DNA of 64,000 nucleotides. Source: a virus. Taxonomy: Duplodnaviria; Heunggongvirae; Uroviricota; Caudoviricetes. Numbering within the stretch: position 1 is the stretch's first letter; each line of letters begins with the position of its first letter. Where the stretch lies: the IMG/VR virus record IMGVR_UViG_3300033076_000726, positions 55,240 to 119,239 of that record; one strand, written 5' to 3'. The position numbers and the translations under genes are program-made. Shown here in pieces: positions 7,088-62,694 of the stretch. The notes beneath the pieces were generated by a model. It saw nothing but the letters and a program-made list of their open reading frames with translations, made no database searches and was not told where the DNA came from.

Positions 7088-7101
7088 AATACATATAAAA
7101 T

Positions 7102-10646: not shown

Positions 10647-11218
10647 AAATTTAAAAATTGTTGCGGTGTTATAAGATTTAATATTTCTTTTCTATTTTCA
10701 TCTAATAATTTAAAATCTAACACATCTGATTTTGGAAATAAGGTTTGTTTACCTTTACTAATAATACCAACACCGTGGTCAGTATCGACAACACACATAT
10801 TTAAATTTTCGTCTGTCATTCTGAATTTAACATATGCCTTCCATGTTGTCCCATTCCAAGTAGTTCCAAGAACATATTCTTCCACTTGATGTTCTTCTTT
10901 AATTGGACTACAGTCATGCATCACAATTGTTCCTCCATCACTTAAATGTTTTAATGAGTTGGTGATATCTTTTTCTACCTGATAATCAAGATGTAAACCA
11001 TCAATGAAGATAATATCATATTTTACGTTTTCATCTAATTGCTCAAAGAAATCGTCAGATGTAATTGGATAGTTACAACGACCCGCTGGGTCAACACCAT
11101 CCTTATGTTCAATATCAATTAGATTTAAATTGGATTCAGGGTCTCTAACTCCAATTTCTAAATACCGTTTATAATTATTTTTCTTGATTAAGTGATTGAT
11201 AATGTCTGTTCTTTTCAT
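10643..11218 (-). CDS. class I SAM-dependent methyltransferase (Methyltransf_24/TylF-like)
   Basis: YLEIGVRDPESN and DIIFIDGLHLDYQVEKD...LSDGGTIVMHDC. Confidence 0.7.
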   Translation of the reverse strand: MKRTDIINHLIKKNNYKRYLEIGVRDPESNLNLIDIEHKDGVDPAGRCNYPITSDDFFEQLDENVKYDIIFIDGLHLDYQVEKDITNSLKHLSDGGTIVMHDCSPIKEEHQVEEYVLGTTWNGTTWKAYVKFRMTDENLNMCVVDTDHGVGIISKGKQTLFPKSDVLDFKLLDENRKEILNLITPQQFLNL

Positions 11219-11729
11219 TCTTTTTTGCTTTTAAAATTATATCTGAATGTCCTCCATCCAAAGAATATGTTAGTTCGATAATTGTGAAATCTTCCTCAAA
11301 GAAATTTTGAATTTCTGTTAGACTCATTCGTACTTCATCTCCATAATTGTAGATGTTTGGTGATGAGGTATGTCCCTTCTCACATTTATCCGAACACATA
11401 GATAAAAATAAGAAACCTCCGTCACATAGTAAATCGGTAATTTGTTTTTTATAAAGATTTGGTTCAGGACAAAATTGAAATGAACTTATGGATGTCACAA
11501 AATTATATATCCCAATATGTTCTTCGGGGATAATGCCAGGTTCAATAACCACATCCACACCTTCTCCATCATATATGTCAAAACCAATTGCGTGTGATAT
11601 AATATTTTTAGTTGAACCGTTTATATTATACGCACCCACATCTGCAATTTTTGATGAATCGATACTAATCCTGTTTGATTTATACCAATCCTCAAGACGA
11701 TATTTTACATTATCATGCATATTGTTCAA
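11175..11729 (-). CDS. putative SAM-dependent methyltransferase
   Basis: IADVGAYNINGS (GxGxG-like), GVDVVIE, LLCDGGFLFLS; weaker match. Confidence 0.45.
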   Translation of the reverse strand: MNNMHDNVKYRLEDWYKSNRISIDSSKIADVGAYNINGSTKNIISHAIGFDIYDGEGVDVVIEPGIIPEEHIGIYNFVTSISSFQFCPEPNLYKKQITDLLCDGGFLFLSMCSDKCEKGHTSSPNIYNYGDEVRMSLTEIQNFFEEDFTIIELTYSLDGGHSDIILKAKKNEKNRHYQSLNQEK

Positions 11730-12624
11730 TAAGTTTTATCAGTTTTTCGGTTATAACTTTTGTACTTAAACTGTTCAAAATAAAAGGTTGAATATCTTTA
11801 AGATATCTTCTTCTGTTGTGGATGTTGTTTAATATATTAAGTGCGTTTTTTAATGATTGTGGGTCATTGGCAATCGCATAATCTAAATTGAATTCTTTTG
11901 CTAATTCTTCATAACTTCTTGATGAGTTAACAATACATGGTACACCACAAGCAATTGACGCAATCATTTTATTGTTACTCTTTACACCAGCATCTGAACC
12001 TAAATGAGATAATGCACATACATTTGATTTTCTTAAATCATCTACAAACGTATCAAGTCCCCATTGTGTTTTCGTAATCGGCGGTTGAACGTTTATGTTT
12101 CTTGCATCAGTTATTAAATTTAATTCAAATCTTGTTTCAATAATGTGAGGAACCATCCATTGTATCGACTGAGCATTTGGATAATTACCAAACCAAGCAA
12201 TTTTATTGGATACCTCAGGAGTTTCTAATATATCAACAACACCATAATCCAAACAATCCTCAATAACAATACATTCTTTACCAGTACCCAAAGAATCGAA
12301 ATGTTCTTTTCTACCCAAAGTATCTGTTGTAACAATATCGATATGTTCCATCATCTCTCTGAAATGTGGATTATTGTGTACAGGGTCATCGAAGTCAAAT
12401 ATTTTGAATCCTTCAAATGCTTTAACATATGTAAGTGTTTGGTTATCAATTCTTTTTTGAATGATTAGTATATCTGAATTGATATCAAAACCAATATTAC
12501 TTTCATACTTGTTAGAATGGTATCTGTTAATCGATTGATTTGGATAGAACAAACGTATTCTTGTTGATGCAAAGTTTTTTACATCATCATACATTGGTAT
12601 CCATGAAATTTTCTTAGTTGACAT
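11713..12624 (-). CDS. putative GT-B glycosyltransferase
   Basis: C-terminal SNNKMIASIACGVPCIVNSS resembles the GT4 donor-binding segment. Confidence 0.45.
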   Translation of the reverse strand: MSTKKISWIPMYDDVKNFASTRIRLFYPNQSINRYHSNKYESNIGFDINSDILIIQKRIDNQTLTYVKAFEGFKIFDFDDPVHNNPHFREMMEHIDIVTTDTLGRKEHFDSLGTGKECIVIEDCLDYGVVDILETPEVSNKIAWFGNYPNAQSIQWMVPHIIETRFELNLITDARNINVQPPITKTQWGLDTFVDDLRKSNVCALSHLGSDAGVKSNNKMIASIACGVPCIVNSSRSYEELAKEFNLDYAIANDPQSLKNALNILNNIHNRRRYLKDIQPFILNSLSTKVITEKLIKLIEQYA

Positions 12625-13210
12625 ATTCCCAATTAAATCTTAATCTTGGTGTTGACTCAACACCTTTTCTTTTTATTACTTCTAAATTATGTGTACTGTC
12701 TCTAACACCTTCACTTGAACTTTCCTTAGCGTATACTTTCGCTTTAATGTGTCTTAACTCATGTACTTCTAATAATCTTACACATTTATTATAGAAATGT
12801 ATATCATCATAACCATAGTTACCACAGAAGTCTTCATCATACCCACCAATCTTTTCAAAGTCATCTTTATGGATTACATAGATGTTTACACTATTAGTAT
12901 CTTCTCTACCTAAGTAATAAACACAACCACGTTTTAATTCTGTCTTTTCTAATTGTTCCATATTTTCTTTAGTCACTAAGTGGTCAATGTCTGCACATAA
13001 TATCCACCCATCGCTAATATGAAATCCTAAATTTCTTGCACCTGGTTGATTCCATTTAATGTCATCAGTTACCCTAACAACCTTAACACCATCCAATGGT
13101 CCTAATGGTTCCTTAGAACAATCATCAACAATAACAGTTTTCAATCCTTGTTCTAAAATACCTTGTATTCTTTCTCTTTGTCCGAAATATGTGTATAATA
13201 CTGTAATCAT
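12614..13210 (-). CDS. glycosyltransferase family 2-like (small)
   Basis: TVIVDDCSKEP and NQPGARNLGFHISDGWILCADIDHL (DxD-like). Confidence 0.55.
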   Translation of the reverse strand: MITVLYTYFGQRERIQGILEQGLKTVIVDDCSKEPLGPLDGVKVVRVTDDIKWNQPGARNLGFHISDGWILCADIDHLVTKENMEQLEKTELKRGCVYYLGREDTNSVNIYVIHKDDFEKIGGYDEDFCGNYGYDDIHFYNKCVRLLEVHELRHIKAKVYAKESSSEGVRDSTHNLEVIKRKGVESTPRLRFNWEYVN

Positions 13211-13213
13211 AAA

Positions 13214-13912
13214 TTATCTTAAATGTTTTCCTTGGTCATCAAAATACTCATTACCACCACTATCCCCTTTAACGGCATATAAGTTTGCATAACCTTTTAA
13301 TCTTTTTCTTTTTAATTTCTTATCTAATTTCCATATACAATATGGAAAACTAATTTGGTCTCTTGAACTAAATCTACATATTTGTTCCCACCACATTAAC
13401 TGTAATTGTTTAATTACATCTGTGGTTTTTACTATGAATGTCGAAAGTTCGAACAACCCAAATAATTCTGGCATCCCTTTAGATTTGTAGAACGCGAATT
13501 GATTATCAATATTTTGTTGATAGTCCAATCTCCAATGAACACATGCACCCATCTCTTGATATAAACAAGTTCTATCAGGATGTTTAAATAAAAAGATATC
13601 GGTATCGGCACCATACTCATCTATAATCAATTGAGGGTCTTTTTTTAATTGGTGGTTACCATCTTCCCAAATAATATATTCATATTGAGGGAACATTATT
13701 GACGATAAAATTTTATATGGTTTGGCATTTCTTCTATCAGTAAGTCCATCAATGGATGAAAATTCTAATACACTTCTTTGTTCCCAAACTTTAACTGTCT
13801 CGTCTTTCTTATCCACATATGCAATATAATCACAATTGTCAAAAACCTGTGGTGGGTCTAACAATTTATCTTTTCCTCCGGTGATTGCGGTTAATACTAA
13901 GAATTTTTTCAT
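13214..13912 (-). CDS. putative glycosyltransferase (TOD1/DUF616-like)
   Basis: N-terminal FLVLTAITGGKDKLLDP resembles the DUF616 'IYTAIFGxYDxL' start; tentative. Confidence 0.35.
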   Translation of the reverse strand: MKKFLVLTAITGGKDKLLDPPQVFDNCDYIAYVDKKDETVKVWEQRSVLEFSSIDGLTDRRNAKPYKILSSIMFPQYEYIIWEDGNHQLKKDPQLIIDEYGADTDIFLFKHPDRTCLYQEMGACVHWRLDYQQNIDNQFAFYKSKGMPELFGLFELSTFIVKTTDVIKQLQLMWWEQICRFSSRDQISFPYCIWKLDKKLKRKRLKGYANLYAVKGDSGGNEYFDDQGKHLR

Positions 13913-14619
13913 ATTTTTTCGTTTCTACAAAGTACAAGTAATTTATCATTATCCCATCCTGGGGAATATCTATTTTTATGTTCGGTCACAATAAAAGTCA
14001 TTGAATGGAAATACGACTCTAACGGTTCAAAATTCTTTGCGAAATCGTCTTCATTGGTACTTCTAAAAATATCCTCAACAATTAAATAACCACCTGGTTT
14101 TATGTAACGATATGCGTGATATGCGAATAATGTGTTATGAGGTAAATCATGTATCATATCATCAATTATCACATCAAATCCACCACCAGTCGATTGTAAA
14201 CACTCTTCAATTGACTCGGATTTATTAACATCCATGAAATGATATGTAGTGTTTTCTAAATTATCACTAATTGCTTTATTCATGTATGTTTGGTCATATT
14301 CAAATCCATGTAACTCGGCATATGGGAAGTATTCCCTCCAACACTTCATTGACATATTTTCGGCAATACCGCCTTCAGCAAATTTAATTGGTTTGTATCG
14401 TAATGACATAAATAACATATCATATACCGCCATGTATGGATGTCTATGTCCATCATGAACAACATATGGAGATTTATCTGTTGGATATTTTACACCCAAC
14501 TTACATAAATCAGTAATTGAATCTGATGAATCGATTATTAGTTTATTTATTATCATATTGTTCCGTAATATTTGTTTTGTTTTTCTTGTCTTTGTATTGT
14601 TTTGTGATGTTGAATACAA
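13909..14619 (-). CDS. class I SAM-dependent methyltransferase
   Basis: GGGFDVIIDDMIHD...YIKPGGYLIVEDIF (Methyltransf_24-like). Confidence 0.6.
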   Translation of the reverse strand: MYSTSQNNTKTRKTKQILRNNMIINKLIIDSSDSITDLCKLGVKYPTDKSPYVVHDGHRHPYMAVYDMLFMSLRYKPIKFAEGGIAENMSMKCWREYFPYAELHGFEYDQTYMNKAISDNLENTTYHFMDVNKSESIEECLQSTGGGFDVIIDDMIHDLPHNTLFAYHAYRYIKPGGYLIVEDIFRSTNEDDFAKNFEPLESYFHSMTFIVTEHKNRYSPGWDNDKLLVLCRNEKI

Positions 14620-15173
14620 TATTCTTCGTCATCAGGTAAGGAGGCAAATTTACTACCGCCTATAATCCTTTCATGAACTTTACCATACCATCTAAGATGT
14701 TTCTTATAAATTCTACCTTGTCTATCGGGAAAATTTATCCAACCCTTTTCATTTATGTTCCATCTCCAAGTGTCGATATGTTCTTGTGTTATCCCATCTA
14801 CTGTGTTAATACGGGGTACAAAGATTAAGTCTACGTTTGGGTTCATTTCAAGAATGTTATGTAAATTCTCAACCATATATTGACTAATCATCTCATCTGC
14901 GTCAATTTGATAGATATAATCACCAGTACAATAACCGTTTAATATGTTTTTAAAATCGGCAAAATTATCATTCCAATCAAAACATCTCCAAGTTTGAACA
15001 TTTGGTAGTTTATTATACGGTAATAGAAAATTTAATACGTCAGGGTCTCCATTTGTGTTATCATATAGAATCACTATTTCGTCCTGAGGTCTCTTGTAAT
15101 CCAATAAAAACGGGACTAATCTCCTTATTTCCGTCAATTCGTTGCAAATTGTTATTGCGTAACTTATCTTCAT
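14553..15173 (-). CDS. glycosyltransferase family 2
   Basis: MKISYAITICNELTEIRRL...EIVILYDNTNGD, then QIDADE (DxD). Confidence 0.65.
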   Translation of the reverse strand: MKISYAITICNELTEIRRLVPFLLDYKRPQDEIVILYDNTNGDPDVLNFLLPYNKLPNVQTWRCFDWNDNFADFKNILNGYCTGDYIYQIDADEMISQYMVENLHNILEMNPNVDLIFVPRINTVDGITQEHIDTWRWNINEKGWINFPDRQGRIYKKHLRWYGKVHERIIGGSKFASLPDDEEYCIQHHKTIQRQEKQNKYYGTI

Positions 15174-15264
15174 ATTTTCGTTTATTTTCTTCTATCGTTA
15201 ATTCTTCACATCTCCAACACCACTCAGCGTCTTTAGAATCCCAACTGTGTCTTTCACATCTCAT
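15061..15264 (-). CDS. small Zn-ribbon-like protein (uncertain)
   Basis: Internal ATG gives MRCERHSW...AEWCWRCEE (C-x2-H...C-x2-C) with an ATGA overlap onto the upstream ORF stop; overlaps the GT2 start by ~110 nt. Confidence 0.3.
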   Translation of the reverse strand: MRCERHSWDSKDAEWCWRCEELTIEENKRKYEDKLRNNNLQRIDGNKEISPVFIGLQETSGRNSDSI

Positions 15265-15488
15265 GCTCTTTGTCCTCCTATGTCCATCCAACGATTAAAA
15301 TATTCTAAATTAGTATTTAAACGTTGTATTCTACCTTCAAATATTGATGGTACACCATCGTTTATTCTTCTGGTTAATTCATCAATAATATTATTATCAA
15401 TTTCTCTCGCAATTTGTTCGGATAACATATTCGTTAATTCCGTTTCAACATCAACAACAAAGCCACGAAAAAATTTAAAACTATTCAT
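15261..15488 (-). CDS. hypothetical protein, member of the 'SFKF(F/L)RG' N-terminal family
   Basis: MNSFKFFRGFVVDVETEL...; N-terminus similar to the next ORF. Confidence 0.5.
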   Translation of the reverse strand: MNSFKFFRGFVVDVETELTNMLSEQIAREIDNNIIDELTRRINDGVPSIFEGRIQRLNTNLEYFNRWMDIGGQRA

Positions 15489-15738
15489 TTATTCTTTCCC
15501 TCGCAAATATTTTAAATCTTCTACCATTATGTTCGAATGTTATGTTCCCACCGGTTGTTGGTTGTATTGTCATAGTTAATGTATCATGACCCGTACCAAA
15601 CACGTGAGGTTCATCGTCATCGAATTGAAAACAATATTCATTATTTGTGTGAGGTGTGTTTTGTCTTAAAGATAATACCTGCATTGGTTCCAATCTTAAA
15701 AATATATCTTCATCACCTCTTAAAAATTTAAAACTCAT
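15481..15738 (-). CDS. hypothetical protein, tandem paralog (FDDDEP motif)
   Basis: Internal Met MSFKFLRGDED creates an ATGA overlap with the upstream gene; FQFDDDEPHVFG and C-terminal GRRFKIFARER shared with 15735-15998. Confidence 0.5.
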   Translation of the reverse strand: MSFKFLRGDEDIFLRLEPMQVLSLRQNTPHTNNEYCFQFDDDEPHVFGTGHDTLTMTIQPTTGGNITFEHNGRRFKIFARERINE

Positions 15739-15998
15739 TTTTGTTTGGGTCTTGCCCACATTTTAAAAGTCTTACCATTTTCACTATTGGTAAAAGTTAT
15801 AAACGATTGGTTTGTGTTTTGTAATTTAATTACAACTTCATGATTGGTTGAATTATCGTCTGATTGTGCAAACAATTGAGGTTCATCATCGTCAAATTGA
15901 ATCATCCACTCACACGGAGTATAATATTCAATTTCAGGAACATTAAGGTCAAATTCAACCTCAGGAGTTTCAATTTTCTTTTTTCTTGACTTAGCCAT
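15735..15998 (-). CDS. hypothetical protein, tandem paralog (FDDDEP motif)
   Basis: IQFDDDEPQLFA and GKTFKMWARPK match the neighbour. Confidence 0.55.
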   Translation of the reverse strand: MAKSRKKKIETPEVEFDLNVPEIEYYTPCEWMIQFDDDEPQLFAQSDDNSTNHEVVIKLQNTNQSFITFTNSENGKTFKMWARPKQK

Positions 15999-16000
15999 CT

Positions 16001-17257
16001 CTACTTAATTTTATTTAATTTAGGTAAAACTAATTTAGTTTCTTGTGGAATAACCATAAACGGCAAGATTATTGATTTAAACTTATCTTTCATTTTTTCC
16101 ATTGAAAAATTATTAACATTCTCTTCTCTCAAAACTTCAGATTTTTTTATAAACATATCATAATCTTTCTTAACTAATTTTAATACCTCAACAACTTCAC
16201 CATAATTTGCAGTAAACCATTTGGAACCTTTTATTATAAATGAATCAATTGCACTATCGTGAACATCTGTCAATTTACCTCCAACCATAATTGCCTTATC
16301 CATAGGTAAAAAATCTTTATGTCCCGACCAGTTAGATGCAACTATTGGTTTACCCGTCATTGAAAACTCTAACAATGGTCTACCAAACCCTTCACCTTTT
16401 GTTATTGATACCATTGATTTAATTTTTGGGTGGTTATATAGGTCATTCATTTCACTATCTGATAATTCACCAAATAACAAATAAATGGAAGGTGGATTTG
16501 GTATATCACTAACTAATCCTTGAATTTTCTTTCTGAAAGATTCTCTTTCTTTTATTGAAAATCCTGCGGACGATGTTTTTAAAACTAATGCGGGTTTATC
16601 TTCACTATCCTTAAACGCACTTGCAAAACATTTAATCAACATACCCACATCTTTTCTGTCTTGTCCTAAATCACCTTTTAACCAATGACCAACAAAAAGA
16701 TACGCAAAATCTTCCAAAATATCTAATTTAAAGTCATCATTTTTAATGTTGTTATAAACATTAGTATTAACACCTTCAAACAATACTTCAATAGGTTTTT
16801 CGATTCTATGTTGTTTAACTAATTTTCCAGTATTCTTTTCATTTTCATTATAAACAGTTTGTAATAATACATCCTTAGAAAATGTTGATGTGGTGATTAT
16901 CATATCCATTCTATTACAACCATCAACCCAATCTTTTGGTGCAATTGTTGTTTCAATACCCGCAGTAATTCCTATGTTAAATTTACCAACTCTTTGAAAT
17001 TCATTTGGTACTGTGACTTGAATATAAAGTTCGGGTGTCTGATTTAAATTAACTGTTACAATGTTCGATTCAATCCATTTGTGAAATGTATTATCACTTT
17101 CCAATGCGGTCATTGGTGTGGTTCCCCACATACAACTATCAATTTTAATATCAAACAAATCCATCTCATACAATGCTTGTAATAAATCTCTTGAATGTGC
17201 ACCGTACCCACTTCTCGTTTTTACTGGTCCTCTAAATAATAATGTTGGTTTGTTCAT
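16001..17257 (-). CDS. GT-B glycosyltransferase (GT4-like)
   Basis: GEGFGRPLLEFSMTGKPIVASNWSG fits the GT4 E-x7-E segment. Confidence 0.75.
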   Translation of the reverse strand: MNKPTLLFRGPVKTRSGYGAHSRDLLQALYEMDLFDIKIDSCMWGTTPMTALESDNTFHKWIESNIVTVNLNQTPELYIQVTVPNEFQRVGKFNIGITAGIETTIAPKDWVDGCNRMDMIITTSTFSKDVLLQTVYNENEKNTGKLVKQHRIEKPIEVLFEGVNTNVYNNIKNDDFKLDILEDFAYLFVGHWLKGDLGQDRKDVGMLIKCFASAFKDSEDKPALVLKTSSAGFSIKERESFRKKIQGLVSDIPNPPSIYLLFGELSDSEMNDLYNHPKIKSMVSITKGEGFGRPLLEFSMTGKPIVASNWSGHKDFLPMDKAIMVGGKLTDVHDSAIDSFIIKGSKWFTANYGEVVEVLKLVKKDYDMFIKKSEVLREENVNNFSMEKMKDKFKSIILPFMVIPQETKLVLPKLNKIK

Positions 17258-18636
17258 ACTAACTTATATAAATTAAATTTTTCTCTTGGTTTATAATTCA
17301 TCAATGCGGTTTCAATTCCCTCAACCATTTTATCACACATCACTTTTGATGAGAAGTTCTCAATTGCAAATTCACGACCCTTTAATCCTCTTTCTTTTCT
17401 ACCCTCTTTACCCCATGAATAAACTTCACTAATTGCTTGTGCAACATCATAATCGTTTACTCTATCATCAAAAATATAAGGTGTTGGTACCGAACCATTT
17501 ATGTTATTTGCAACTGACCATACTGGTTTAACCCATTCACCATGTTTTGTTGACCCGTGGTCTTTTTTAATATGAAGTGAACCAAATGTAATGTAATTGT
17601 CTGCGGTGTAATTAAAACCACATTGGTCTTGTAAACCTCCTGTTACATTTACAATGATTGGTGTTCCGGCCATTAGACTTTCGACTGTGGTTAAACCGAA
17701 ACCTTCATTGTTTGCAATGTTTATTGTGCAATCAGATGCGTTATATAATTCATTTAATTTATCCTGTTCTAATTTAATGTTGGTAAATTTAACATCGTAG
17801 TCAGGACATAAAGTATCTTTAACTGCATTTAAATCTGTACCATTATCGTCAACTGGTGCGGTGTGCATTAACAATAGACATTTATCAGATTCTTCCTTCG
17901 GTAACATGTCACAAAACAATTTATATGAATATATCACATCACTTGGTTGTTTTCTTCTTATGTTTCTATTGTTGTAAAATAAAATGAATTCATATTTCTT
18001 TTTTGAAAACAAAAACTTATCGAATTCATCTGAAATTTTATCAATCGGTTTGAACACCTCAGGATTTATTCCGTGTGGAACATAACTAATCTGCCAATCT
18101 TCTAAAGGTTTATATGTTGGTTCATCAGTCATTTTACCAACTCTATGAACAATACCATATGTTTGTTTAGATATACAACCAATCCAATCACAACTTTCAT
18201 AGAAATCTCTATTATATTTTGGGTCTGGTAAGTTATCCCATATGTGATAATAAAGTATTGGACATACTTGTCTTATTTCATGTTCATTATCATATAACCA
18301 TTGCCAATAATGTGGGTCGGTGAAATGTAAAATAGCATCTGGTTTTTCTTCTAATAATAATTTTCTAAGAATACCAATATCACCATAACCATTATATGGA
18401 ATTATTTTTAAATTAGCATCCTCAACACCCGTTCTCTTTCTAACATCGTCATTTATATCAACAACTTTTCCAAATTCAGGATGTTTAATTGCCCCACCTA
18501 ATTGAACCCAGTCGTATTTGTCAATTGTACCCAATACGATTTCTTTAGACATGGTGGCAATACCTGACGTCATTCGCAAATCGTCAGATAATAATAATAT
18601 TTTTTTCTTCTTCATTAAATCAATACTTTGAACCAC
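17254..18636 (-). CDS. GT-B glycosyltransferase (GT4-like)
   Basis: NNEGFGLTTVESLMAGTPIIVNVTGG. Confidence 0.75.
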   Translation of the reverse strand: MVQSIDLMKKKKILLLSDDLRMTSGIATMSKEIVLGTIDKYDWVQLGGAIKHPEFGKVVDINDDVRKRTGVEDANLKIIPYNGYGDIGILRKLLLEEKPDAILHFTDPHYWQWLYDNEHEIRQVCPILYYHIWDNLPDPKYNRDFYESCDWIGCISKQTYGIVHRVGKMTDEPTYKPLEDWQISYVPHGINPEVFKPIDKISDEFDKFLFSKKKYEFILFYNNRNIRRKQPSDVIYSYKLFCDMLPKEESDKCLLLMHTAPVDDNGTDLNAVKDTLCPDYDVKFTNIKLEQDKLNELYNASDCTINIANNEGFGLTTVESLMAGTPIIVNVTGGLQDQCGFNYTADNYITFGSLHIKKDHGSTKHGEWVKPVWSVANNINGSVPTPYIFDDRVNDYDVAQAISEVYSWGKEGRKERGLKGREFAIENFSSKVMCDKMVEGIETALMNYKPREKFNLYKLV

Positions 18637-40645: not shown

Positions 40646-42793
40646 ATGGCAGAACTTTACAATTACAGAAAGGAAGAATCTAAACCAAGACCAATGGATT
40701 TCAATGCTGAGGATAAACACCTCGACATGATGAGAGCCATTGCACCTTTCGCAAAAGCTAAGGTTCAAGAAAACGTCACAGACGTTGAGATTATACCGAG
40801 TACCAAAAATACAAAATTAGCACTTGTGTTAATGCCCGAGTGGTCACCTAACTTTCCGCCATTTAGTATTGCTCGTTTATCTGCCGTTTCAAGAAAGGCC
40901 GGTTATAATACTAAGTGTTTCGATTTTAATGTTAAAGTACATAATGAATCTCGTAAATGGTTATTGGAAAATAAAATTGACTTTGACCCCTTTGATGGTG
41001 CTCGTGAATGGAAATGGAATCCACCACATTACTACGAAGAAATTCACCAACATACGGAACCATTATTTAAAGAGTACCTAAAAGATATTATGGCATTTGA
41101 CCCTGATGTTGTTGGGTTTACATTATATTATTGTAATGAACAACCGGTTAAGTGGATGATGACCGAGTTAAAGAAACTAAAACCATCAATAAAAATATTA
41201 TTAGGGGGACCACACGTTGCGTTGAGACAATATCAATTCTTAGACCCTAATGATTATCCACAAGGTGTAATTGATTATGCGGTTAATGGTGAAGGTGAAA
41301 TGATTTTGTTACAAATATTAAATGAAATAGAAAAGGGTGTGGTTCATCCAACGATGCAATATTTGGCACAACCTGAAAACCAAAGATTAAATTTAAATAA
41401 TCTACCATTACCTGATTATTCAACATTTGATTTTAATGAGTATGTTTATCCAAACGGAGTTAACACAGAATTCAGTAGAGGTTGTATTGCTAAATGTTCT
41501 TTCTGTGAAGAAACACATTTTTGGAAGTATAGACAAAGACAGGCGGTTGATGCGATAACGGAAATCGAATGGTTATATTATAACAAAGGTACCGATGTTA
41601 TTTGGTTCATTGATAGTTTAGTTAATGGTAACTTAAATGAATTAAGAGCATTTTGTAAAGGTGTTGTTGCAAAGGGAATGAAGATACATTGGACGGGTTA
41701 TGCTAGACATGATGGTCGAATGGATTTAGAATATTATAAAGACTTGAAGGCGGGTGGTTGTGAGATGTTGAGTTATGGTTGTGAATCTGGTAGTCAGAAA
41801 GTACTTAACGATATGTTAAAAGGAGTTACCATTCAAGAAATGGAAGATAACTTGGCATCGGGTAAAGTTGTTGGTGTTGGTGGATTGACGAACTGGATTG
41901 TAGGTTTCCCAACTGAAGACTATGAAGACTTTGGACACACGATGAGTTTCATTTGGAGAAATAGAAACACAAGTATATTAACAATTGCGGCTGGTTTTGG
42001 TTTTGGATTAGGTGTTAATACGGTTGCCGGACAAAACATTGAACGTTTCAATATATCACCATTCTTTTACTTAGGTAGTTGGATGAGAGATGATTATAAA
42101 TTATCTAAGATACATGTTTTGAATAGAGTAAAATCATTTGCGATATTCTTACAAAATATGAAAAGTGAAGAACCGATTAGTGTACCGTGGAGACCTAACT
42201 TACCTGAGTTTCATTACACACTAACATTTGACAATCCCGATAAACTAATTGAGATTGATTATGAAACTGGTTTTGATTACAATATCATTAAACCTAACAT
42301 TAGTAATTTCGCAGATAGTTTAGTTAACGAAATGTTTGTTCTGTTTAGATTATTTTGGAGAACAAGGGGTGGATTTGAGATTCATTTAAAATATGATGAG
42401 GAGTTGGATATGATTGAATTTGGTGCTAGAAATGCTGGACCATATTGGGCTGACCATCATTTTAAGATAGATGATGAAGGTAAGTGGACATATAAATGTA
42501 AACATAAATTTACACAACCGGCATATGACCCTGTTGAAAGAATTCCATTTAGATTAGAAGACTATTCATATACTAAATTAAATGCATCGACAAGAGCAAG
42601 AAAAATTGCAAAACCAAGATGGGGTGAAGAAGGTAGACCTGACCCCGAATTTAAACAACTAGAAATACAACTATTTCACATGAATAGTAATGTTGATTTT
42701 AGTTTTGAATATGAGTGGGAAGGTTCGGGAGATTGGTCAAATAAACCAGTCGAAGAAATTACCCCATTACCAAATAAAAAGACATTGATATGA
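40646..42793 (+). CDS. B12-binding (class B) radical SAM enzyme with long C-terminal extension
   Basis: N-terminal B12-binding-like LALVLMPEW...DVVGFTLYY...KILLGGPH; radical SAM FSRGCIAKCSFCEE (CxxxCxxC). Confidence 0.8.
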   Translation: MAELYNYRKEESKPRPMDFNAEDKHLDMMRAIAPFAKAKVQENVTDVEIIPSTKNTKLALVLMPEWSPNFPPFSIARLSAVSRKAGYNTKCFDFNVKVHNESRKWLLENKIDFDPFDGAREWKWNPPHYYEEIHQHTEPLFKEYLKDIMAFDPDVVGFTLYYCNEQPVKWMMTELKKLKPSIKILLGGPHVALRQYQFLDPNDYPQGVIDYAVNGEGEMILLQILNEIEKGVVHPTMQYLAQPENQRLNLNNLPLPDYSTFDFNEYVYPNGVNTEFSRGCIAKCSFCEETHFWKYRQRQAVDAITEIEWLYYNKGTDVIWFIDSLVNGNLNELRAFCKGVVAKGMKIHWTGYARHDGRMDLEYYKDLKAGGCEMLSYGCESGSQKVLNDMLKGVTIQEMEDNLASGKVVGVGGLTNWIVGFPTEDYEDFGHTMSFIWRNRNTSILTIAAGFGFGLGVNTVAGQNIERFNISPFFYLGSWMRDDYKLSKIHVLNRVKSFAIFLQNMKSEEPISVPWRPNLPEFHYTLTFDNPDKLIEIDYETGFDYNIIKPNISNFADSLVNEMFVLFRLFWRTRGGFEIHLKYDEELDMIEFGARNAGPYWADHHFKIDDEGKWTYKCKHKFTQPAYDPVERIPFRLEDYSYTKLNASTRARKIAKPRWGEEGRPDPEFKQLEIQLFHMNSNVDFSFEYEWEGSGDWSNKPVEEITPLPNKKTLI

Positions 42794-49870: not shown

Positions 49871-49923
49871 AAAATATTTGGAATATTCTAACTAATCCCC
49901 TATTTTTGTACAAAATATAACAT

Positions 49924-51655: not shown

Positions 51656-51684
51656 TTTGGTATTGTCGATATATTTTTGTATTT

Positions 51685-51870
51685 TTGGTGATGGAAGTAA
51701 AAGTAACAATTAAATACCACATTGAAGTCGGTCAGGAAACTATTCAATGTGAATCGTTAGAACAGGCAGAAAGAAAGTTAAAAAGTCTTAGAGTATCTGA
51801 AGCTGAATGTTATTTGTATAGAACAGAGTTTCATGGTAAGTCTATAAAAATAACTTATCTGATGTCATAA
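51685..51870 (+). CDS. small hypothetical protein
   Basis: 61-aa ORF. Confidence 0.4.
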   Translation: MVMEVKVTIKYHIEVGQETIQCESLEQAERKLKSLRVSEAECYLYRTEFHGKSIKITYLMS

Positions 51871-54481: not shown

Positions 54482-54522
54482 TATTTTTTGGAATATTCTG
54501 AAAAATTAGTTACATTTGTCCT

Positions 54523-55343: not shown

Positions 55344-55400
55344 TTTTGGAATATTCAAAAAAATATAATATCTTTGGAGAAGAAACAAACACATACAAAA

Positions 55401-58597: not shown

Positions 58598-58909
58598 ATG
58601 AAATTAGGAGAATTCATCAAACAATTTTCTCACAATAATATTGTGAGATTACATTACAAAATTAAAGGTGGACATCAATGTGTCTTAGAAAGTTGGGATG
58701 ATGTTTCGATGGACCACGAGATTGTGAATGGTAAAGGTAAGAATCGTCACTACATTAACAATGAGGTATTAGGTTTAGTAGGTATAAACTTTCGAAGTGG
58801 TGACACACATTACCCTGAAGCTATCAATATCGTAATTGAGGAATTGGAAAACCAACCATTGATTGAAGAAATAAAAGAAGAACAAATACAATACAGTGAA
58901 GCCATTTAA
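58598..58909 (+). CDS. hypothetical protein
   Basis: 103-aa ORF. Confidence 0.5.
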   Translation: MKLGEFIKQFSHNNIVRLHYKIKGGHQCVLESWDDVSMDHEIVNGKGKNRHYINNEVLGLVGINFRSGDTHYPEAINIVIEELENQPLIEEIKEEQIQYSEAI

Positions 58910-59396
58910 ATTTTTTCAGAAGGGGACACTCGATGACCCGCAGATGTTAAATGATTTAACTCAAGCAACCGCATCGTTTAATGAGGACACTCCTGGTGGT
59001 CATATGTATCGAAGAAGATTATATCACACAGACCGTGCCACATATGATAGATTGTATCGAGGTACACATATGGAGGCGGATAGATATTATTTTGACAGGG
59101 AGTTAGGACGTTTTGAAACTATTCAACCAACTCAATTAACCAGACAAAGAATCGAAGACCAAGAGCACCAAGAAAGATTGAGATTGATTAGAAGAATAAA
59201 TGGTGGAGAAAGAATTGTACCATTCTTCACCGGCACACCAATAGCAACAACAACAAATCCAAAATGGTGGATGAAGATAAAGATATTCTTTCAAGAACAG
59301 TTTTGGTTTAAAGACCCAGCAGGTGTAATTGCAATTGCCGGAGGATTAACAATATTTGTAATTCTAACGATAGCAAAAATATTAAGTGTGTGGTAA
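58896..59396 (+). CDS. MKPFKFFQ-family protein with C-terminal TM
   Basis: N-terminus MKPFKFFQKG; C-terminal AGVIAIAGGLTIFVILTIAKIL anchor. Confidence 0.55.
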   Translation: MKPFKFFQKGTLDDPQMLNDLTQATASFNEDTPGGHMYRRRLYHTDRATYDRLYRGTHMEADRYYFDRELGRFETIQPTQLTRQRIEDQEHQERLRLIRRINGGERIVPFFTGTPIATTTNPKWWMKIKIFFQEQFWFKDPAGVIAIAGGLTIFVILTIAKILSVW

Positions 59397-59692
59397 AAGA
59401 TTTTAAATTTTTTCAAGATAACAATCAGGATGAGATAACACCACACAATGGTGCATCGTGGATGTGGGGAAGACTTGAGAATCTTGACCAATACAATTAC
59501 GATATTGCATTAGATTATCATTTTGGTATTCATTCATTTCTAAATCAATTTCCTGATGGACATATTGCAATAATCTTATCAATTACCGGTCCTGATGGTT
59601 TTGTACATAGTATTGATAATGATGGAATTGGTTGGAGATTTGATATATTAGTGGATTTGATTGCAATTCAATGGATAAGATTTAGACCTTAA
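59390..59692 (+). CDS. MKPFKFFQ-family protein
   Basis: MVKDFKFFQDN N-terminus. Confidence 0.5.
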   Translation: MVKDFKFFQDNNQDEITPHNGASWMWGRLENLDQYNYDIALDYHFGIHSFLNQFPDGHIAIILSITGPDGFVHSIDNDGIGWRFDILVDLIAIQWIRFRP

Positions 59693-59695
59693 TAT

Positions 59696-59950
59696 ATGAA
59701 ACCATTTAAATTTTTTCAAAATAAACCCGAGAGAGTATTCACCGACTACATGGATAGGATGGATGATTATTTCTTGGGTGGAATAAGGGAAGAACCTACT
59801 CCCATCCCATACGAACAATATCAAGGTTGGGATGCACATCATAACAATCTCCCACCAGGTCAATGTCCATATGATATTGGAACAATAGAACGTGAACATT
59901 GGATGACGGGTTGGAGTAATAGGGAAAACTGGGAACAACAACCCCAATAG
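59696..59950 (+). CDS. MKPFKFFQ-family protein
   Basis: MKPFKFFQNKPE N-terminus. Confidence 0.5.
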   Translation: MKPFKFFQNKPERVFTDYMDRMDDYFLGGIREEPTPIPYEQYQGWDAHHNNLPPGQCPYDIGTIEREHWMTGWSNRENWEQQPQ

Positions 59951-59958
59951 TATAAAGA

Positions 59959-60696
59959 ATGGCAAAGATTGAAATAGATTATGAAAAGAAGTACGGATAT
60001 CTAAAGATAATTCGTGAAGTTCCGACACCTGAGGGTCAGAAGTACACGGGTAGGTTGATTTTGTGTAAATGTGATTGTGGGGTGGAGAAGGTAATCAAAC
60101 TTACTAATGTGGTAAATGGTGCAACAACATCTTGTGGTTGTCAGAAATTTAAAAATTCCAAGGAGAATGGATTAAAGAGTAGGAGAACATTTTTAAATGT
60201 TGGGGATGTATATGGTAGATTAAAGGTGAAAAGGGAGGTTGAGGGTATTAGATACAATAATCAAAAAAGGGACCATAGACAATATGAGTGTGAATGTACA
60301 TGTGGGAACATATGTGTGGTTCAGATGAGACATTTAACGGCGGGAAAGACCACATCATGTGGTTGTTATAGAATTGAGAGGAGTTTGGAGACAATTACAA
60401 AGCATGATATGCATAAGACTTCCGAGTATAAGGCTTGGCAATCATTAAAACAGAGATGTTATAATCCCAAGACCATACATTTTAAGGATTATGGTGGAAG
60501 AGGACTAACGGTATGTGATAGGTGGTTGGAATCATTTGAGAATTTTTTTGAGGATATGGGTTTCAAACCCACTCCGACGCATAGTATTGATAGGATTGAT
60601 AACCATAAATTGATTGACGCCTATTCCAAAGATAATTGTAGATGGGCAACAAAGAAGGAACAGGTTGATAATAGAAGGATAAACGAGTCCAAATAA
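59959..60696 (+). CDS. HNH (HNH_3-type) endonuclease with duplicated Cys-rich repeats
   Basis: Two repeats (LILCKCDCG...TSCGC and YECECTCG...TSCGC), then HSIDRIDNHK...DNCRWATKKEQVDNRR (HNH_3-like). Confidence 0.6.
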   Translation: MAKIEIDYEKKYGYLKIIREVPTPEGQKYTGRLILCKCDCGVEKVIKLTNVVNGATTSCGCQKFKNSKENGLKSRRTFLNVGDVYGRLKVKREVEGIRYNNQKRDHRQYECECTCGNICVVQMRHLTAGKTTSCGCYRIERSLETITKHDMHKTSEYKAWQSLKQRCYNPKTIHFKDYGGRGLTVCDRWLESFENFFEDMGFKPTPTHSIDRIDNHKLIDAYSKDNCRWATKKEQVDNRRINESK

Positions 60697-60719
60697 ATAC
60701 ATACGGTATTTAATGGTAT

Positions 60720-61040
60720 ATGGCCAAGAAGAAATTACAAAAGATTGTTAAGGAATGGAATGAATGTGGACCCAAAGAGGTGTTCGAAGGGGTAAGAGAT
60801 AACTTCATCTTTGGATTCTTGGGTGCGACCATTGTGGTATTCATATCCACCAGAACTGATATCATGGTTATATTGGGATATTTGGCATACTATTTCTTTA
60901 TGGGGAGGATTGTTAATCGTCCCAAATACGTCACCGACCTTGGTAGACTCATCGTATTCCCAATCCCATCGGCACTTGGTGCGTTCACTGGATATAAGTT
61001 ATCTTATATTATTCAGACGTACTTTATGAGTGTCCTATAA
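60720..61040 (+). CDS. small membrane protein
   Basis: 106 aa, 2-3 TM. Confidence 0.5.
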   Translation: MAKKKLQKIVKEWNECGPKEVFEGVRDNFIFGFLGATIVVFISTRTDIMVILGYLAYYFFMGRIVNRPKYVTDLGRLIVFPIPSALGAFTGYKLSYIIQTYFMSVL

Positions 61041-61300
61041 CCACATCTTCCTCTTCTTCTTTTACGAATACGTAGGATTGTACGGAGGGTAATCCACTAT
61101 ATTGACATAGACTATCGTCACCTACCAATAGTAATTCATCTTTATCGAAGTATACTCCATCACTATGCATGTCTGCTAACGGTCTATAAGATATTCCTTT
61201 CATGTGTTTATTTGTTTAGACCACAAAGTTAAACAATAGATTTGACATAAAAAAATTTAAATTATTTGGGATATATCGGAATATATTGTATATTTGGTAT

Positions 61301-61627
61301 ATGAAACCGTTTAAGTTCTTAAAGAATCCGATTGCAACCGCTCACGATGGTGGTTATATATACGCGGGGGAAACGTTCTATACAATGAATAAGGAGGAAT
61401 TTTCATCAATTACGGGGAGAATGATTCCCAAATATACTATTGTAAGAAGATATGTTGGAAAGAAGTTTGCAATCGTATTCAAACCTGACTATGATTCATT
61501 ATGGTATTTCCGTAGTGAACAGAACGCGGAATATCTAAGGGATATATGGGAAAGACAGGATAGAATGACAGAAGGCGGGGAGATATTCAACAATCAATCA
61601 GATATAACAATAACATTCAATAGATGA
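61301..61627 (+). CDS. MKPFKFFQ-family protein
   Basis: ATG at 61301 gives MKPFKFLKNP. Confidence 0.5.
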   Translation: MKPFKFLKNPIATAHDGGYIYAGETFYTMNKEEFSSITGRMIPKYTIVRRYVGKKFAIVFKPDYDSLWYFRSEQNAEYLRDIWERQDRMTEGGEIFNNQSDITITFNR

Positions 61628-61915: not shown

Positions 61916-62248
61916 ATGAACATAGTAGACTTCATAGATGAACTAAGAAATACTGACAGGTATATTCATCACATCTACACAAAAGGAGGTTGTTATAAGT
62001 TTCACCTCCTACTAAGTAAGATGTATAAAGGTTGTATACCATATACGAATGGGAATCATATTATCACAAGGTATAAGGGAAAATATTATGACATATATGG
62101 TGAAGTGGATAATCAAGATGGATTCAGAAAACTATCTACTATGGAAAAACCACAGGTTGAGAAATGGTCCTTCCATATGAATAATCTTCTTGTACTAAAG
62201 GATTGTCCCCATTGTGATGAACCGATTATTATAGAGAACTTATCATGA
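61916..62248 (+). CDS. hypothetical protein
   Basis: Internal ATG avoids a 77-nt overlap with the upstream gene. Confidence 0.45.
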   Translation: MNIVDFIDELRNTDRYIHHIYTKGGCYKFHLLLSKMYKGCIPYTNGNHIITRYKGKYYDIYGEVDNQDGFRKLSTMEKPQVEKWSFHMNNLLVLKDCPHCDEPIIIENLS

Positions 62249-62694
62249 AAGTATATTATTGTTTTGAATGTGACTCTAAGGAAAATATACATCATCATCA
62301 TGTGATTCCACAGAGTAAAGGGGGAACTAAAACCATACCCTTATGTGAAGTTTGTCACGGTAAAGTACATGGGATTGATTTTACTAACCATGGAATATTG
62401 ACAAGAGAAGGATTGAAACGAGCCAAAGATAGAGGAGTTAAATTAGGTTCACCTCAGAATCTAACAAAGGTTGCCACATTAAAGGGTGTTGAATCTATTA
62501 AAAGGAATCGTATTGAGAATGAAAATTGGATATTCTGTAAGAACTTTATAGATGAATTTGTAAAGGTAAATGGATATCTAAATTATACCCAGATAAGTAA
62601 TCTCTTAAATGAACAAGGACATAAGACAAGACATAATAAGAAGTTTACTCCGAGTATAGTAAGAAGAGTACATCTAAATTTTAATACACCCTGA
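62245..62694 (+). CDS. HNH homing-endonuclease-like protein with resolvase-like DNA-binding tail
   Basis: YYCFECDSKENIHHHHVIPQSKGGTKTIPLCEVCHGKVHG (HNH core); C-terminal LKRAKDRGVKLGSP resembles the serine-recombinase C-terminal segment. Confidence 0.7.
   Translation: MKVYYCFECDSKENIHHHHVIPQSKGGTKTIPLCEVCHGKVHGIDFTNHGILTREGLKRAKDRGVKLGSPQNLTKVATLKGVESIKRNRIENENWIFCKNFIDEFVKVNGYLNYTQISNLLNEQGHKTRHNKKFTPSIVRRVHLNFNTP

What the first reader, a model, noticed from the sequence alone, without database searches (positions are those of the whole stretch)
58896..61627. Family of small proteins sharing the N-terminal tag MKPFKFFQ, with a related SFKF(F/L)RG tag in a distant tandem set
Four ORFs start with almost the same octapeptide and then diverge completely: 58896 MKPFKFFQKG, 59390 MVKDFKFFQDN, 59696 MKPFKFFQNK and 61301 MKPFKFLKNP.

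At 15261-15998 on the other strand, three tandem ORFs begin MNSFKFFRG, MSFKFLRG and MAKSRKKK... Two of them share FDDDEP and a C-terminal (R/K)xFK(I/M)(F/W)AR.

A conserved N-terminal leader on otherwise unrelated small proteins is what is seen for capsid-targeting or propeptide sequences cleaved by a prohead protease (T4 internal proteins, jumbo-phage head proteins). It is also seen for a shared export or packaging signal. The conservation also extends into the nucleotide sequence just upstream, which could indicate a shared translational or regulatory element.
Basis: seen in the sequence. Interest (0 to 1): 0.6.

Follow-up and report, generated by a model that had tools for sequence, protein, structure and literature searches.

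The report
Shared peptide tag on phage proteins
An uncultured group of large flavobacterial phages starts dozens of otherwise unrelated small proteins with the same seven-residue tag (M-x-x-F-K-F-F/L), which looks like an address label sending them all to one partner, possibly the virus head, and has not been described before.

Summary
Six window ORFs (four at 58.9-61.6 kb, two at 15.3-15.7 kb) start M-x(1-3)-F-K-F-(F/L); about 0.02 are expected by chance. Synonymous codons vary as in the rest of the genes and nothing upstream is shared, so the selection is on the peptide, not on RNA or DNA.

The same tag heads 6-20 tandem small genes (46-189 aa) per 20 kb in uncultured viral contigs up to 335 kb. 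In 132 non-redundant members F, K and F are essentially invariant, while the bodies fall into at least 25 BLAST-unrelated groups. No cultured phage, bacterial genome or paper shows it.

An AlphaFold model leaves the tag outside the folded core. Two tagged subfamilies are built from fragments of a T4-type major capsid protein. One widespread 116-128 aa form carries the motif at both termini.

The phage is related to T4-like Flavobacterium myophages. However, the tag is not followed by a protease-cleavage consensus, the bodies are mostly acidic, and the arrays lie among early-type accessory genes.

Best reading (about 0.35): a terminal docking peptide that addresses a fast-evolving protein repertoire to one partner, most likely the procapsid. 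That would make it a functional analogue of the T4 capsid-targeting sequence, not a homologue. Docking to a non-capsid hub is nearly as likely.

The parts
58896..59396 (+). Tagged gene A (166 aa, GTG start; tag MKPFKFF = 58896-58916). Basic body (pI 9.0) with a C-terminal transmembrane anchor.
   Evidence: orthologs in L009, L010 and L011
58907..58909 (+). TAA stop of the upstream gene (58598-58909), embedded in the TTT-AAA (F-K) codons of A's tag, giving a 14-nt overlap. This is the commonest junction type in the arrays.
   Evidence: 22 of 54 junctions use this embedded TAA
59390..59692 (+). Tagged gene B (100 aa, GTG start; tag MVKDFKFF = 59390-59413). It overlaps A by 7 nt.
   Evidence: ATG-started ortholog in L007
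59696..59950 (+). Tagged gene C (84 aa; tag MKPFKFF = 59696-59716). Acidic body with a weak RMF-like CPY...W..GW motif.
59959..60696 (+). HNH homing-type endonuclease that interrupts the tagged array. It is not a family member.
   Evidence: phrog_374, E 1.2e-65
61265..61296 (+). Bacteroidota-type promoter (TTTGGGATAT...N...TATATTTG) ending 5 nt before D's ATG.
61301..61627 (+). Tagged gene D (108 aa; tag MKPFKFL = 61301-61321, with synonymous codons TTT AAG TTC TTA). 59 metagenomic homologs keep the tag.
15261..15488 (-). Tagged gene E (75 aa; tag MNSFKFF = 15468-15488). It is a shortened member of the 'mini-Gp23' subfamily: tag plus a spine-helix segment derived from a T4-type major capsid protein, ending in GGQRA.
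15481..15738 (-). Tagged gene F (85 aa from the ATG at 15738; tag MSFKFL = 15721-15738). Its ortholog in L030 starts MNFKFFRD.
15735..15998 (-). Gene G (87 aa), an untagged paralog of F.

Best explanation
The heptapeptide M-x(1-3)-F-K-F-(F/L)-x-(G/K/N) is a short terminal docking motif, an alternating aromatic/basic peptide of the kind expected to bind as a beta-strand. It is fused to a large, fast-diversifying set of small phage proteins so that they all bind one common partner. The most likely partner is the T4-type procapsid (the capsid-protein E-loop or the scaffold). Tagged proteins would then be loaded into, or attached to, the head and delivered with the DNA. That makes the tag a functional analogue of the T4 capsid-targeting sequence on its polymorphic internal proteins. 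Unlike the T4 leader, this tag is not homologous to it, appears not to be cleaved off, and can work at either end of a protein.

Shown: the tag is real, selected at peptide level, lies outside the fold, is specific to this lineage, sits on at least 25 unrelated bodies, and occurs at both termini of capsid-protein-derived mini-proteins.

Inferred: the binding mode, the identity of the partner, and packaging.
For: 1. Enrichment: 6 observed against 0.018 expected N-terminal matches in the window; 109 N-terminal against 17 interior matches in the related loci.
2. Peptide-level selection: F1 is TTT 49 / TTC 9; F2 is TTT 35 / TTC 23; position 4 is F or L through seven codons; no shared upstream nucleotides.
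3. F132/K131/F132 are invariant in 132 non-redundant members and nothing is conserved beyond position +5. Bodies fall into 25 BLAST-unrelated clusters.
4. The AlphaFold model of D (pLDDT 81.7) has the tag at pLDDT about 59, outside the beta core.
5. Lineage: the window's GT1 and GT2 are syntenic orthologs of genes in T4-like Flavobacterium phage immuto (E 1e-118 and 8e-71), which has a gp20 portal, a gp21-like protease and a Gp23 capsid protein.
6. Two tagged subfamilies are T4-type capsid-protein fragments. P0064 residues 14-64 are 43% identical to capsid residues 310-360. L008:5576-6046 carries the RR..VQPL N-arm segment. The mini-Gp23 profile finds 875 cluster representatives, of which about 100 small ones match from the tag onward.
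7. Nine 116-128 aa composites have the layout tag / strand 2 + spine helix / N-arm + strand 1 / tag, circularly permuted relative to the capsid protein. This puts both motif copies at the position of the E-loop hairpin. One of them ends at a verified stop codon.
8. The mini-Gp23 model is not confidently folded alone (pLDDT 58), as expected for a partner-dependent fragment.
9. The format (short N-terminal leader, 8-20 kDa unrelated proteins, T4-type phage) matches the T4 CTS paradigm (PMC9026906).
Against: 1. No protease-site consensus follows the tag.
2. Bodies are mostly acidic (median pI 5.45; 81 of 132 below pI 6), unlike the basic T4 internal proteins. The A subfamily has a C-terminal membrane anchor.
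3. The arrays lie among helicase, ligase, methyltransferase, phosphatase and HNH genes, not head genes.
4. D has a host-type, presumably early, promoter. No T4-type late promoter lies upstream of any of the 131 tagged genes examined.
5. The lineage's own capsid protein, scaffold and protease could not be retrieved, so no partner is identified.
6. Related cultured phage immuto has the same head machinery but no tagged genes in the 113 kb scanned. In 780 kb of immuto-like head modules there is only 1 tagged ORF.
Confidence: 0.35

Rival explanations
1. The tag docks to a common partner that is not the capsid. This could be a host hub (chaperone, protease adaptor, translation factor or ribosome) or a phage-encoded adaptor. 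The arrays would then be an early host-takeover or anti-defence arsenal, with each member recruited to the same machine through the tag.
For: The arrays have early-type context and tight translational coupling. D has a host-type promoter. The bodies are small, mostly acidic and orphan, as is typical of anti-defence or takeover proteins. The motif works at either terminus. One body is RMF-like. One carries the capsid-protein segment that is probably equivalent to the EF-Tu-binding Gol region of T4 gp23 (PMC3014915; the mapping of Gol to this segment is from memory).
Against: No partner is identified. The exact tag is not found as a recurring signal in 185,579 bacterial and archaeal genomes: 7 isolated chance-level hits. 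The capsid-derived members are more naturally explained by a capsid partner.
Confidence: 0.3
2. The tag is a recognition leader for a protein-modifying enzyme, such as the glycosyltransferases, radical-SAM enzymes or methyltransferases of the large modification island. This would resemble a RiPP leader, or the paired recognition sequences that flank a core peptide. Tagged proteins would be the substrates.
For: E and F lie inside a conserved glycosylation cluster, syntenic in L030-L032 and L127. The window carries 2OG-Fe(II) oxygenase, radical-SAM, B12-radical-SAM and methyltransferase genes. 'Conserved leader plus hypervariable cores in tandem' is the RiPP precursor layout. The motif at both ends of the composites recalls flanking recognition sequences.
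Against: Immuto has the orthologous glycosylation cluster without any tagged gene. The main arrays are 40 kb from the island. The 'cores' are folded proteins of 40-180 aa and the leader has only 7 residues. No RiPP-recognition-element protein was seen.
Confidence: 0.1
3. The tag is a self-complementary beta-strand zipper. Tags pair with each other, so tagged proteins co-assemble into mixed oligomers or a condensate, with no dedicated receptor.
For: The F-K-F-(F/L) pattern is alternating aromatic/basic, of the kind known from self-assembling peptides (my own knowledge of FKFE-type and KLVFF/KFFE peptides). In composites the two motif copies would be neighbours in space, and they resemble each other more than copies in other proteins do (0.78 against 0.61 identity, n = 11).
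Against: The co-variation signal is weak. AlphaFold does not place the tag in a strand. Uncontrolled aggregation of over 20 proteins seems costly. Nothing was tested directly.
Confidence: 0.1
4. The conservation is a passive relic of common ancestry. Tandem duplicates kept only their first codons, and the tag has no function.
For: The genes are in tandem arrays, and some bodies are detectably paralogous (F/G; merged clusters).
Against: F-K-F is invariant across 132 members and at least 25 unrelated bodies, while everything after +5 is random. Within the D subfamily the tag is as conserved as the fold core over 50-78% identity. Frameshift overprinting was tested and gave 0 hits. The motif recurs at C-termini.
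Confidence: 0.05
5. The conserved element acts at nucleotide level, as a translational coupling or re-initiation signal, a binding site for a translational repressor, or a recombination site for cassette shuffling.
For: In 22 of 54 junctions the upstream gene stops at the TAA inside the F-K codons. Nearly all junctions overlap. The starts lack a Shine-Dalgarno sequence.
Against: Synonymous sites vary as in the gene bodies. Position 4 uses seven codons, including CTN. TTC at F1 (9 of 58) abolishes the embedded TAA. No upstream conservation exists. The motif also occurs at C-termini, and on genes with their own promoter. The 41% share of embedded-TAA junctions is close to the one-third expected from frame alone.
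Confidence: 0.03

Closest known systems
T4 capsid-targeting sequence (CTS) on internal proteins IPI, IPII, IPIII and the polymorphic IP-locus proteins of T-even phages
   Same: A short N-terminal peptide shared by otherwise unrelated small (8-20 kDa) proteins of a T4-type phage. The genes are clustered and vary between related phages. The peptide is a linear signal outside the mature fold (PMC9026906).
   Different: There is no sequence similarity to MKTYQEFIAE (sequence recalled from memory). The tag has 7 residues, not 10-19. No Glu-type cleavage site follows it. The bodies are mostly acidic rather than basic. There are up to 20 members per 20 kb instead of 3-4 per genome. The motif also occurs at C-termini. 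Virion location is untested.
Propeptides of head and ejection proteins in giant phages (phiKZ, 201phi2-1, SPN3US), cleaved by the prohead protease
   Same: Large phages, many head-internal proteins and paralogous families.
   Different: Those proteins share a cleavage motif (S/A/G-x-E, from my own knowledge), not a common N-terminal leader. That motif occurs after the tag in only 22% of members here.
Lambda gpD-type decoration proteins, whose N-terminus docks as an extra beta-strand on the capsid-protein E-loop and N-arm (my own knowledge)
   Same: A flexible N-terminal peptide that becomes a strand on the capsid E-loop is the binding mode proposed here. In the composite mini-proteins the motif sits at the position of the E-loop hairpin.
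   Different: gpD is a single conserved protein, not a tag shared by many unrelated proteins. No structural evidence is available here.
Polymorphic effector systems with a conserved N-terminal trafficking module and variable C-terminal domains (e.g. MIX, LXG, Rhs/PAAR-linked toxins; PMC3482391)
   Same: The logic is the same: a constant address label plus a diversifying payload encoded in arrays.
   Different: Those modules are whole domains for secretion systems in bacteria. Here it is a 7-residue peptide in a phage with no secretion apparatus.
RiPP precursor families with one leader and many hypervariable cores (e.g. prochlorosins; my own knowledge)
   Same: A conserved N-terminal recognition sequence with unrelated sequences downstream, many tandem genes, and modification enzymes in the genome.
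   Different: RiPP leaders are tens of residues long and cores are short peptides. Here the 'cores' are folded proteins, and the related phage with the same enzymes lacks the family.

Membership tests
T4 capsid-targeting sequence / internal proteins | A short N-terminal leader shared by otherwise unrelated small proteins of the same phage | tested here: met
T4 capsid-targeting sequence / internal proteins | Sequence similarity of the leader to the T4 CTS (MKTYQEFIAE) | tested here: not met
   Consensus M-[KI]-[KR]-[PD]-F-K-F-[FL] shares only the initial M-K with the T4 sequence, which is recalled from memory.
T4 capsid-targeting sequence / internal proteins | The leader ends at a prohead-protease site (cleavage after Glu in an L/I-x-E context) and is removed | tested here: not met
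   [LIV]-x-E within +4..+24: 14% observed against 23% in shuffles. No conserved residue after +5. Actual cleavage cannot be tested.
T4 capsid-targeting sequence / internal proteins | Cargo proteins are basic and DNA-associated | tested here: not met
   Median body pI 5.45; 81 of 132 are acidic; one subfamily is membrane-anchored.
T4 capsid-targeting sequence / internal proteins | The phage builds a T4-type head (gp20 portal, gp21 protease, gp22 scaffold, gp23 capsid protein) | tested here: inconclusive
   Syntenic GT orthologs tie the phage to T4-like Flavobacterium phage immuto, which has these genes. The tagged capsid-protein fragments are of Gp23 type. The lineage's own head genes were not retrieved.
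T4 capsid-targeting sequence / internal proteins | The proteins are present inside virions, and the leader is necessary and sufficient for packaging | not testable with these tools
   Needs virion proteomics and fusion experiments.
Sec / Tat / lipoprotein signal peptides | A positively charged n-region followed by a hydrophobic h-region of 10 or more residues and a cleavage site or lipobox | tested here: not met
   Positions +4 to +15 are polar and variable. TM-like segments occur only at the C-terminus of one subfamily.
ClpS N-degron | A free N-terminal F/L/W/Y | tested here: inconclusive
   One to four residues precede the first Phe, so processing would be required. The motif also occurs at C-termini, which an N-degron does not explain.
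RiPP leader peptide | A leader of tens of residues recognised by a dedicated enzyme encoded next to the precursors, with a short core peptide | tested here: not met
   The leader has 7 residues and the bodies are folded proteins of 40-180 aa. The main arrays have no adjacent modifying enzyme.
Gp23 major capsid protein family (PF07068), for gene E and the mini-Gp23 subfamily | A complete HK97-type fold (N-arm, E-loop, P domain, A domain; about 400-650 aa) | tested here: not met
   Only a segment of about 50 residues (strand 2 plus spine helix) is homologous. The proteins are 60-130 aa. The Pfam score is below the curated cutoff (22.9 against 24.4 bits).

The most novel reading that the evidence does not exclude
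FKFFxG is a new, lineage-wide protein-addressing code that works at either terminus by beta-strand pairing with a capsid E-loop-like element. Through it, uncultured T4-like flavobacterial phages (contigs up to 335 kb) would load or display dozens of unrelated, rapidly turning-over effector proteins on their virions. These include circularly permuted mini-capsid proteins that could act as adaptors or as decoys for capsid-sensing immunity. It would be a modular cargo system far larger than the T4 CTS system and independent of it.
Probability: 0.2. Interest if true: 0.9.

Novelty: new variant of a known kind. Interest (0 to 1): 0.72.

Why it matters
If the tag is an addressing signal, it reveals in one step a whole repertoire of proteins that a major, uncultured group of marine and aquatic flavobacterial phages sends to a single destination. 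There are dozens of such proteins per genome and hundreds of protein clusters in metagenomes. That would convert a large block of viral 'dark matter' ORFs into a defined functional class. It would also give a 7-residue handle for engineering cargo into such phages, as the T4 CTS did for T4. Finally, it would provide a second, independent example of how phages evolve polymorphic injected or displayed effector sets. The capsid-protein-derived, circularly permuted mini-proteins with the motif at both ends are an unusual evolutionary object in their own right.

Tried and rejected
1. Nucleotide-level element. Alignment of the starts shows no shared upstream sequence, and synonymous sites in the tag vary freely. 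Rejected.

2. Bodies created by frameshift overprinting of duplicated genes. Shifted-frame translations against all bodies gave 0 hits. Rejected.

3. A host-derived signal. The back-translated tag found only 7 isolated chance-level hits in 185,579 bacterial and archaeal genomes, one of which looked like a SecE N-terminus. Rejected.

4. Cultured relatives carrying the family. Megablast and tblastn against 50,697 phage records found none. The closest cultured relative by glycosyltransferase orthologs, phage immuto, has no tagged gene in the 113 kb scanned.

5. T4-type late promoter TATAAATA. It is absent upstream of 131 tagged genes and under-represented in the window. Uninformative on timing.

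6. Finding the lineage's own capsid protein or protease. I tried an EIAREIDN pattern scan, immuto-capsid-related loci, look-ups at both window ends and a PHROG scan of 78 window genes. All failed.

7. Function from fold. D's confident body has no match in PDB or BFVD.

8. The 484-kb uncultured phage hit (LR756508) turned out to be an ordinary full-length capsid protein.

9. Immuto gene _91, which sits in the slot of E/F/G, is unrelated to them.

10. Literature. 'FKFF' plus 'phage' gave no papers, and no description of the family was found.
Full report
**Observation.** A (58896, GTG) starts MKPFKFFQKG, B (59390, GTG) starts MVKDFKFFQDN, C (59696) starts MKPFKFFQNK and D (61301) starts MKPFKFLKNP. 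E (15488, minus strand) starts MNSFKFFRG and F (15738, minus strand) starts MSFKFLRG. G (15998, minus strand) is untagged but is a paralog of F (38% identity, E 2e-11).

The two GTG starts are supported by ATG-started orthologs elsewhere and by independent gene calls on the same phage in other metagenomes. Six of the 13 FKF[FL] matches in the six-frame translation of the window lie at ORF starts. Amino-acid composition predicts 0.018 N-terminal matches.

The one part of the observation that fails is the claimed conservation of nucleotides upstream. Beyond the start codon and the K/P codons nothing is shared.

**Peptide, not nucleic acid.** Across 58 tagged genes the first Phe is TTT 49 / TTC 9, Lys is AAA 45 / AAG 12, and the second Phe is TTT 35 / TTC 23. 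The fourth position is Phe or Leu through seven different codons. This is close to the codon usage of the same genes outside the tag. D itself uses TTT AAG TTC TTA. The selection is therefore on the amino acids.

A side effect of the F-K codons is a TAA in the -1 frame. In 22 of 54 junctions the upstream gene terminates at that TAA, giving overlaps of 14, 11 or 17 nt. Most other junctions are ATGA or TAATG. The arrays are therefore tightly coupled translationally. However, the share of embedded-TAA junctions (41%) is close to what frame alone would give.

**Extent.** A degenerate back-translation of MKPFKFFQ hit six IMG/VR contigs of 38-335 kb. Fetching loci through one conserved subfamily gave ten loci on contigs of up to 335 kb. 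These carry 6-20 tagged ORFs per 20 kb. All are 46-189 aa and nearly all lie on one strand.

In 132 non-redundant members the profile is M-(I)-[KR]-[PDETQ]-F(132)-K(131)-F(132)-[F90/L42]-[QRKST]-[G43/K38/N15], with nothing conserved after that. With the first 12 residues removed, 60 proteins fall into 25 BLAST-unrelated clusters, many of which are conserved as orthologs between phages. Within the D subfamily (59 homologs at 50-78% identity) the F-K-F is as conserved as the core of the fold.

Controls were negative:
- Bacterial and archaeal genomes gave 7 isolated chance-level hits.
- 780 kb of head-module loci from related T4-like phages gave one tagged ORF, against 119 in 186 kb of array loci.
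- No cultured phage in 50,697 records carries the family.
- No paper mentions it.

**Anatomy.** An AlphaFold model of D built on 35 homologs is confident for residues 10-90 (pLDDT 84-94). It leaves residues 1-9 at about 59, outside the beta core. The tag is therefore a free linear motif. The body has no structural match in PDB or BFVD.

Bodies are mostly acidic (median pI 5.45). The A subfamily ends in a transmembrane anchor. Pfam and PHROGs recognise almost nothing in 58 members, apart from weak Gp23 hits (2 members) and weak RMF hits (2 members).

**Lineage and context.** Start regions lack Shine-Dalgarno sequences (17 of 131) and are A-rich from -14 to -3. Host-type Bacteroidota promoters (TTTG-N17-21-TAnnTTTG) are enriched in the window (10 against 4.2 expected), and one ends 5 nt before D's ATG.

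The window's GT1 and GT2 are syntenic orthologs (43% identity, E 1e-118; 49% identity, E 8e-71) of genes _90 and _92 of the T4-like Flavobacterium phage vB_FspM_immuto. That phage has a gp20 portal, a gp21-like prohead protease and a Gp23 capsid protein. The window phage therefore belongs to the wider group of T4-like flavobacterial myophages.

The arrays themselves lie among a metallophosphatase, a GT2, a DEAD-box helicase, a DNA ligase, a methyltransferase and HNH endonucleases, not head genes. The strongest 25 PHROG families matching 78 window genes include no head or packaging family.

**Capsid-protein-derived members.** E gave a weak Pfam Gp23 hit. Its more distant homologs make the homology clear. 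P0064 residues 14-64 are 43% identical to residues 310-360 of a T4-like capsid protein, which correspond to the return strand of the E-loop plus the spine helix.

This 'mini-Gp23' subfamily is very large: 521 hits in the word-indexed search and 875 cluster representatives in the exhaustive one. About 100 small proteins match the profile from the tag onward, whereas full-length capsid proteins match only from profile position 12-14. Of the roughly 90 whose sequences I read, nearly all start M-x(1-3)-FKFF(H/R/E)G, with a few variants such as FIFF, FTFF or YKFF. E orthologs sit at a conserved position in the glycosylation cluster.

A second tagged subfamily (e.g. L008:5576-6046) carries the capsid-protein N-arm segment RR..IAQDLVPVQPL. 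This is the most conserved part of Gp23-type capsid proteins. From memory, it is equivalent to the EF-Tu-binding Gol region of T4 gp23, whose properties are given in PMC3014915.

Nine 116-128 aa 'composites' combine both segments in the order tag / strand 2 + helix / N-arm + VQPM + strand 1 / second FKFFxG-like motif, and they end right there. One such gene (L127:3878-4255, MLYKFKFIRG...FKNFKILRG*) ends at a verified stop codon and lies in the same glycosylation cluster.

This order is circularly permuted relative to a capsid protein, with the break at the tip of the E-loop hairpin, so the two motif copies would be neighbours in space. They resemble each other somewhat more than copies in other proteins do (0.78 against 0.61, n = 11), which is weak support only. 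The mini-Gp23 model is not confidently folded alone (pLDDT 58).

The T4 capsid-targeting sequence is a 10-19-residue N-terminal propeptide. It is necessary and sufficient for loading unrelated 8-20 kDa basic proteins into the prohead core, and gp21 removes it after a Glu (PMC9026906).

The format matches, but several defining features do not:
- There is no sequence similarity to the T4 leader.
- No [L/I/V]-x-E enrichment follows the tag (14% against 23% in shuffles), and [S/A/G]-x-E occurs in only 22% of members.
- The bodies are acidic rather than basic.
- The genomic context is of the early type.

The lineage's own head genes could not be reached, so the tag's presence on, or fit to, head proteins is untested.

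**Inference.** Several readings are made unlikely by three facts: the motif is invariant on unrelated folds, it lies outside the fold, and it also works at C-termini. These readings are an N-terminus-specific process (degron, signal peptide, initiation), a nucleic-acid element, and a passive relic of ancestry.

What remains is a docking motif for a common partner. The capsid is the most likely partner because the phage is T4-related, the format copies the T4 CTS paradigm, and the only bodies of recognisable origin are capsid-protein contact elements with the motif at the E-loop position. I put this at about 0.35.

A non-capsid hub for early takeover or anti-defence proteins is nearly as likely (0.30), given the context, the charge of the bodies and D's promoter. 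A modification leader (0.10) and a self-pairing zipper (0.10) are not excluded.

**Novelty.** No database, cultured phage or paper describes the tag. As a kind of thing (a short leader shared by polymorphic small proteins of a T4-type phage) it has a precedent, so I class it as a new variant of a known kind. It differs from that precedent in sequence, scale, apparent lack of cleavage, use at both termini, and its association with circularly permuted capsid-protein fragments.

Noticed in passing
window 49877-49908, 51656-51687, 54487-54518, 55345-55376, 61265-61296 (+ strand): A class of host-type Bacteroidota promoters with an extended -33 box, TTTGG(A/G)ATAT(T/A)C ... TAnnTTTG. In three cases the -7 box ends 4-5 nt before the ATG (51691, 54523, 61301), which suggests leaderless or near-leaderless mRNAs. 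The pattern is enriched (10 against 4.2 expected).
   Followed up: partly
window 59696-59950: Tagged protein C carries a ribosome-modulation-factor-like motif, GQCPYDIGTIEREHWMTGW (PF04957, E 2.3e-4, below the curated cutoff; phrog_10492, E 6e-4).
   Followed up: no
window 1811-18615 (both strands): A large sugar- and protein-modification island: 2OG-Fe(II) oxygenase, radical SAM, methyltransferases, an aminotransferase, an epimerase and several GT1/GT2 glycosyltransferases. The two glycosyltransferases compared (GT1 16001-17257, GT2 14553-15173) are syntenic orthologs of Flavobacterium phage immuto genes _90 and _92. Tagged genes E and F, and the untagged paralog G, occupy a slot that holds an unrelated gene in immuto.
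   Followed up: partly
related proteins P0239, P0247, P0255, P0259, P0267, P0269, P0277, P0299; L127:3878-4255: A family of 116-128 aa proteins that are circularly permuted fragments of a T4-type major capsid protein (strand 2 + spine helix, then N-arm + VQPM + strand 1). They carry an FKFFxG-like motif at both termini and lie in phage glycosylation clusters.
   Followed up: partly
L008:5576-6046 and orthologs in L011, L012, L020, L023, L024, L025 and L028: A tagged subfamily carries the capsid-protein N-arm segment RR.AGRTIAQDLVPVQPLGPP. This is probably the counterpart of the T4 gp23 Gol region, which binds EF-Tu and triggers the Lit abortive-infection protease. It could be a decoy or an EF-Tu binder.
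   Followed up: no
window 59959-60696 and 62245-62694: An HNH endonuclease interrupts the tagged array, and a second HNH-like gene lies nearby. Similar HNH genes sit beside arrays in related contigs (e.g. L027:13697-14989), suggesting that mobile endonucleases contribute to turnover of the arrays.
   Followed up: no
window 40646-42793: A 715-aa B12-binding radical-SAM protein (PF02310 + PF04055) with no relative in 50,697 phage records.
   Followed up: no
window 58896-59396: Tagged protein A and its orthologs are tail-anchored by a single C-terminal transmembrane helix. If the tag is a cytoplasmic docking peptide, this member would tether the partner to the membrane.
   Followed up: no
array loci L008, L012, L020-L029; window 58907-58909: Many array genes end in ...ETI* or ...ENI*. 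Their last codons and stop are read from the next gene's ATG-AAA-CCA-TTT-AA in the -1 frame, so the tag region is dual-coding.
   Followed up: yes
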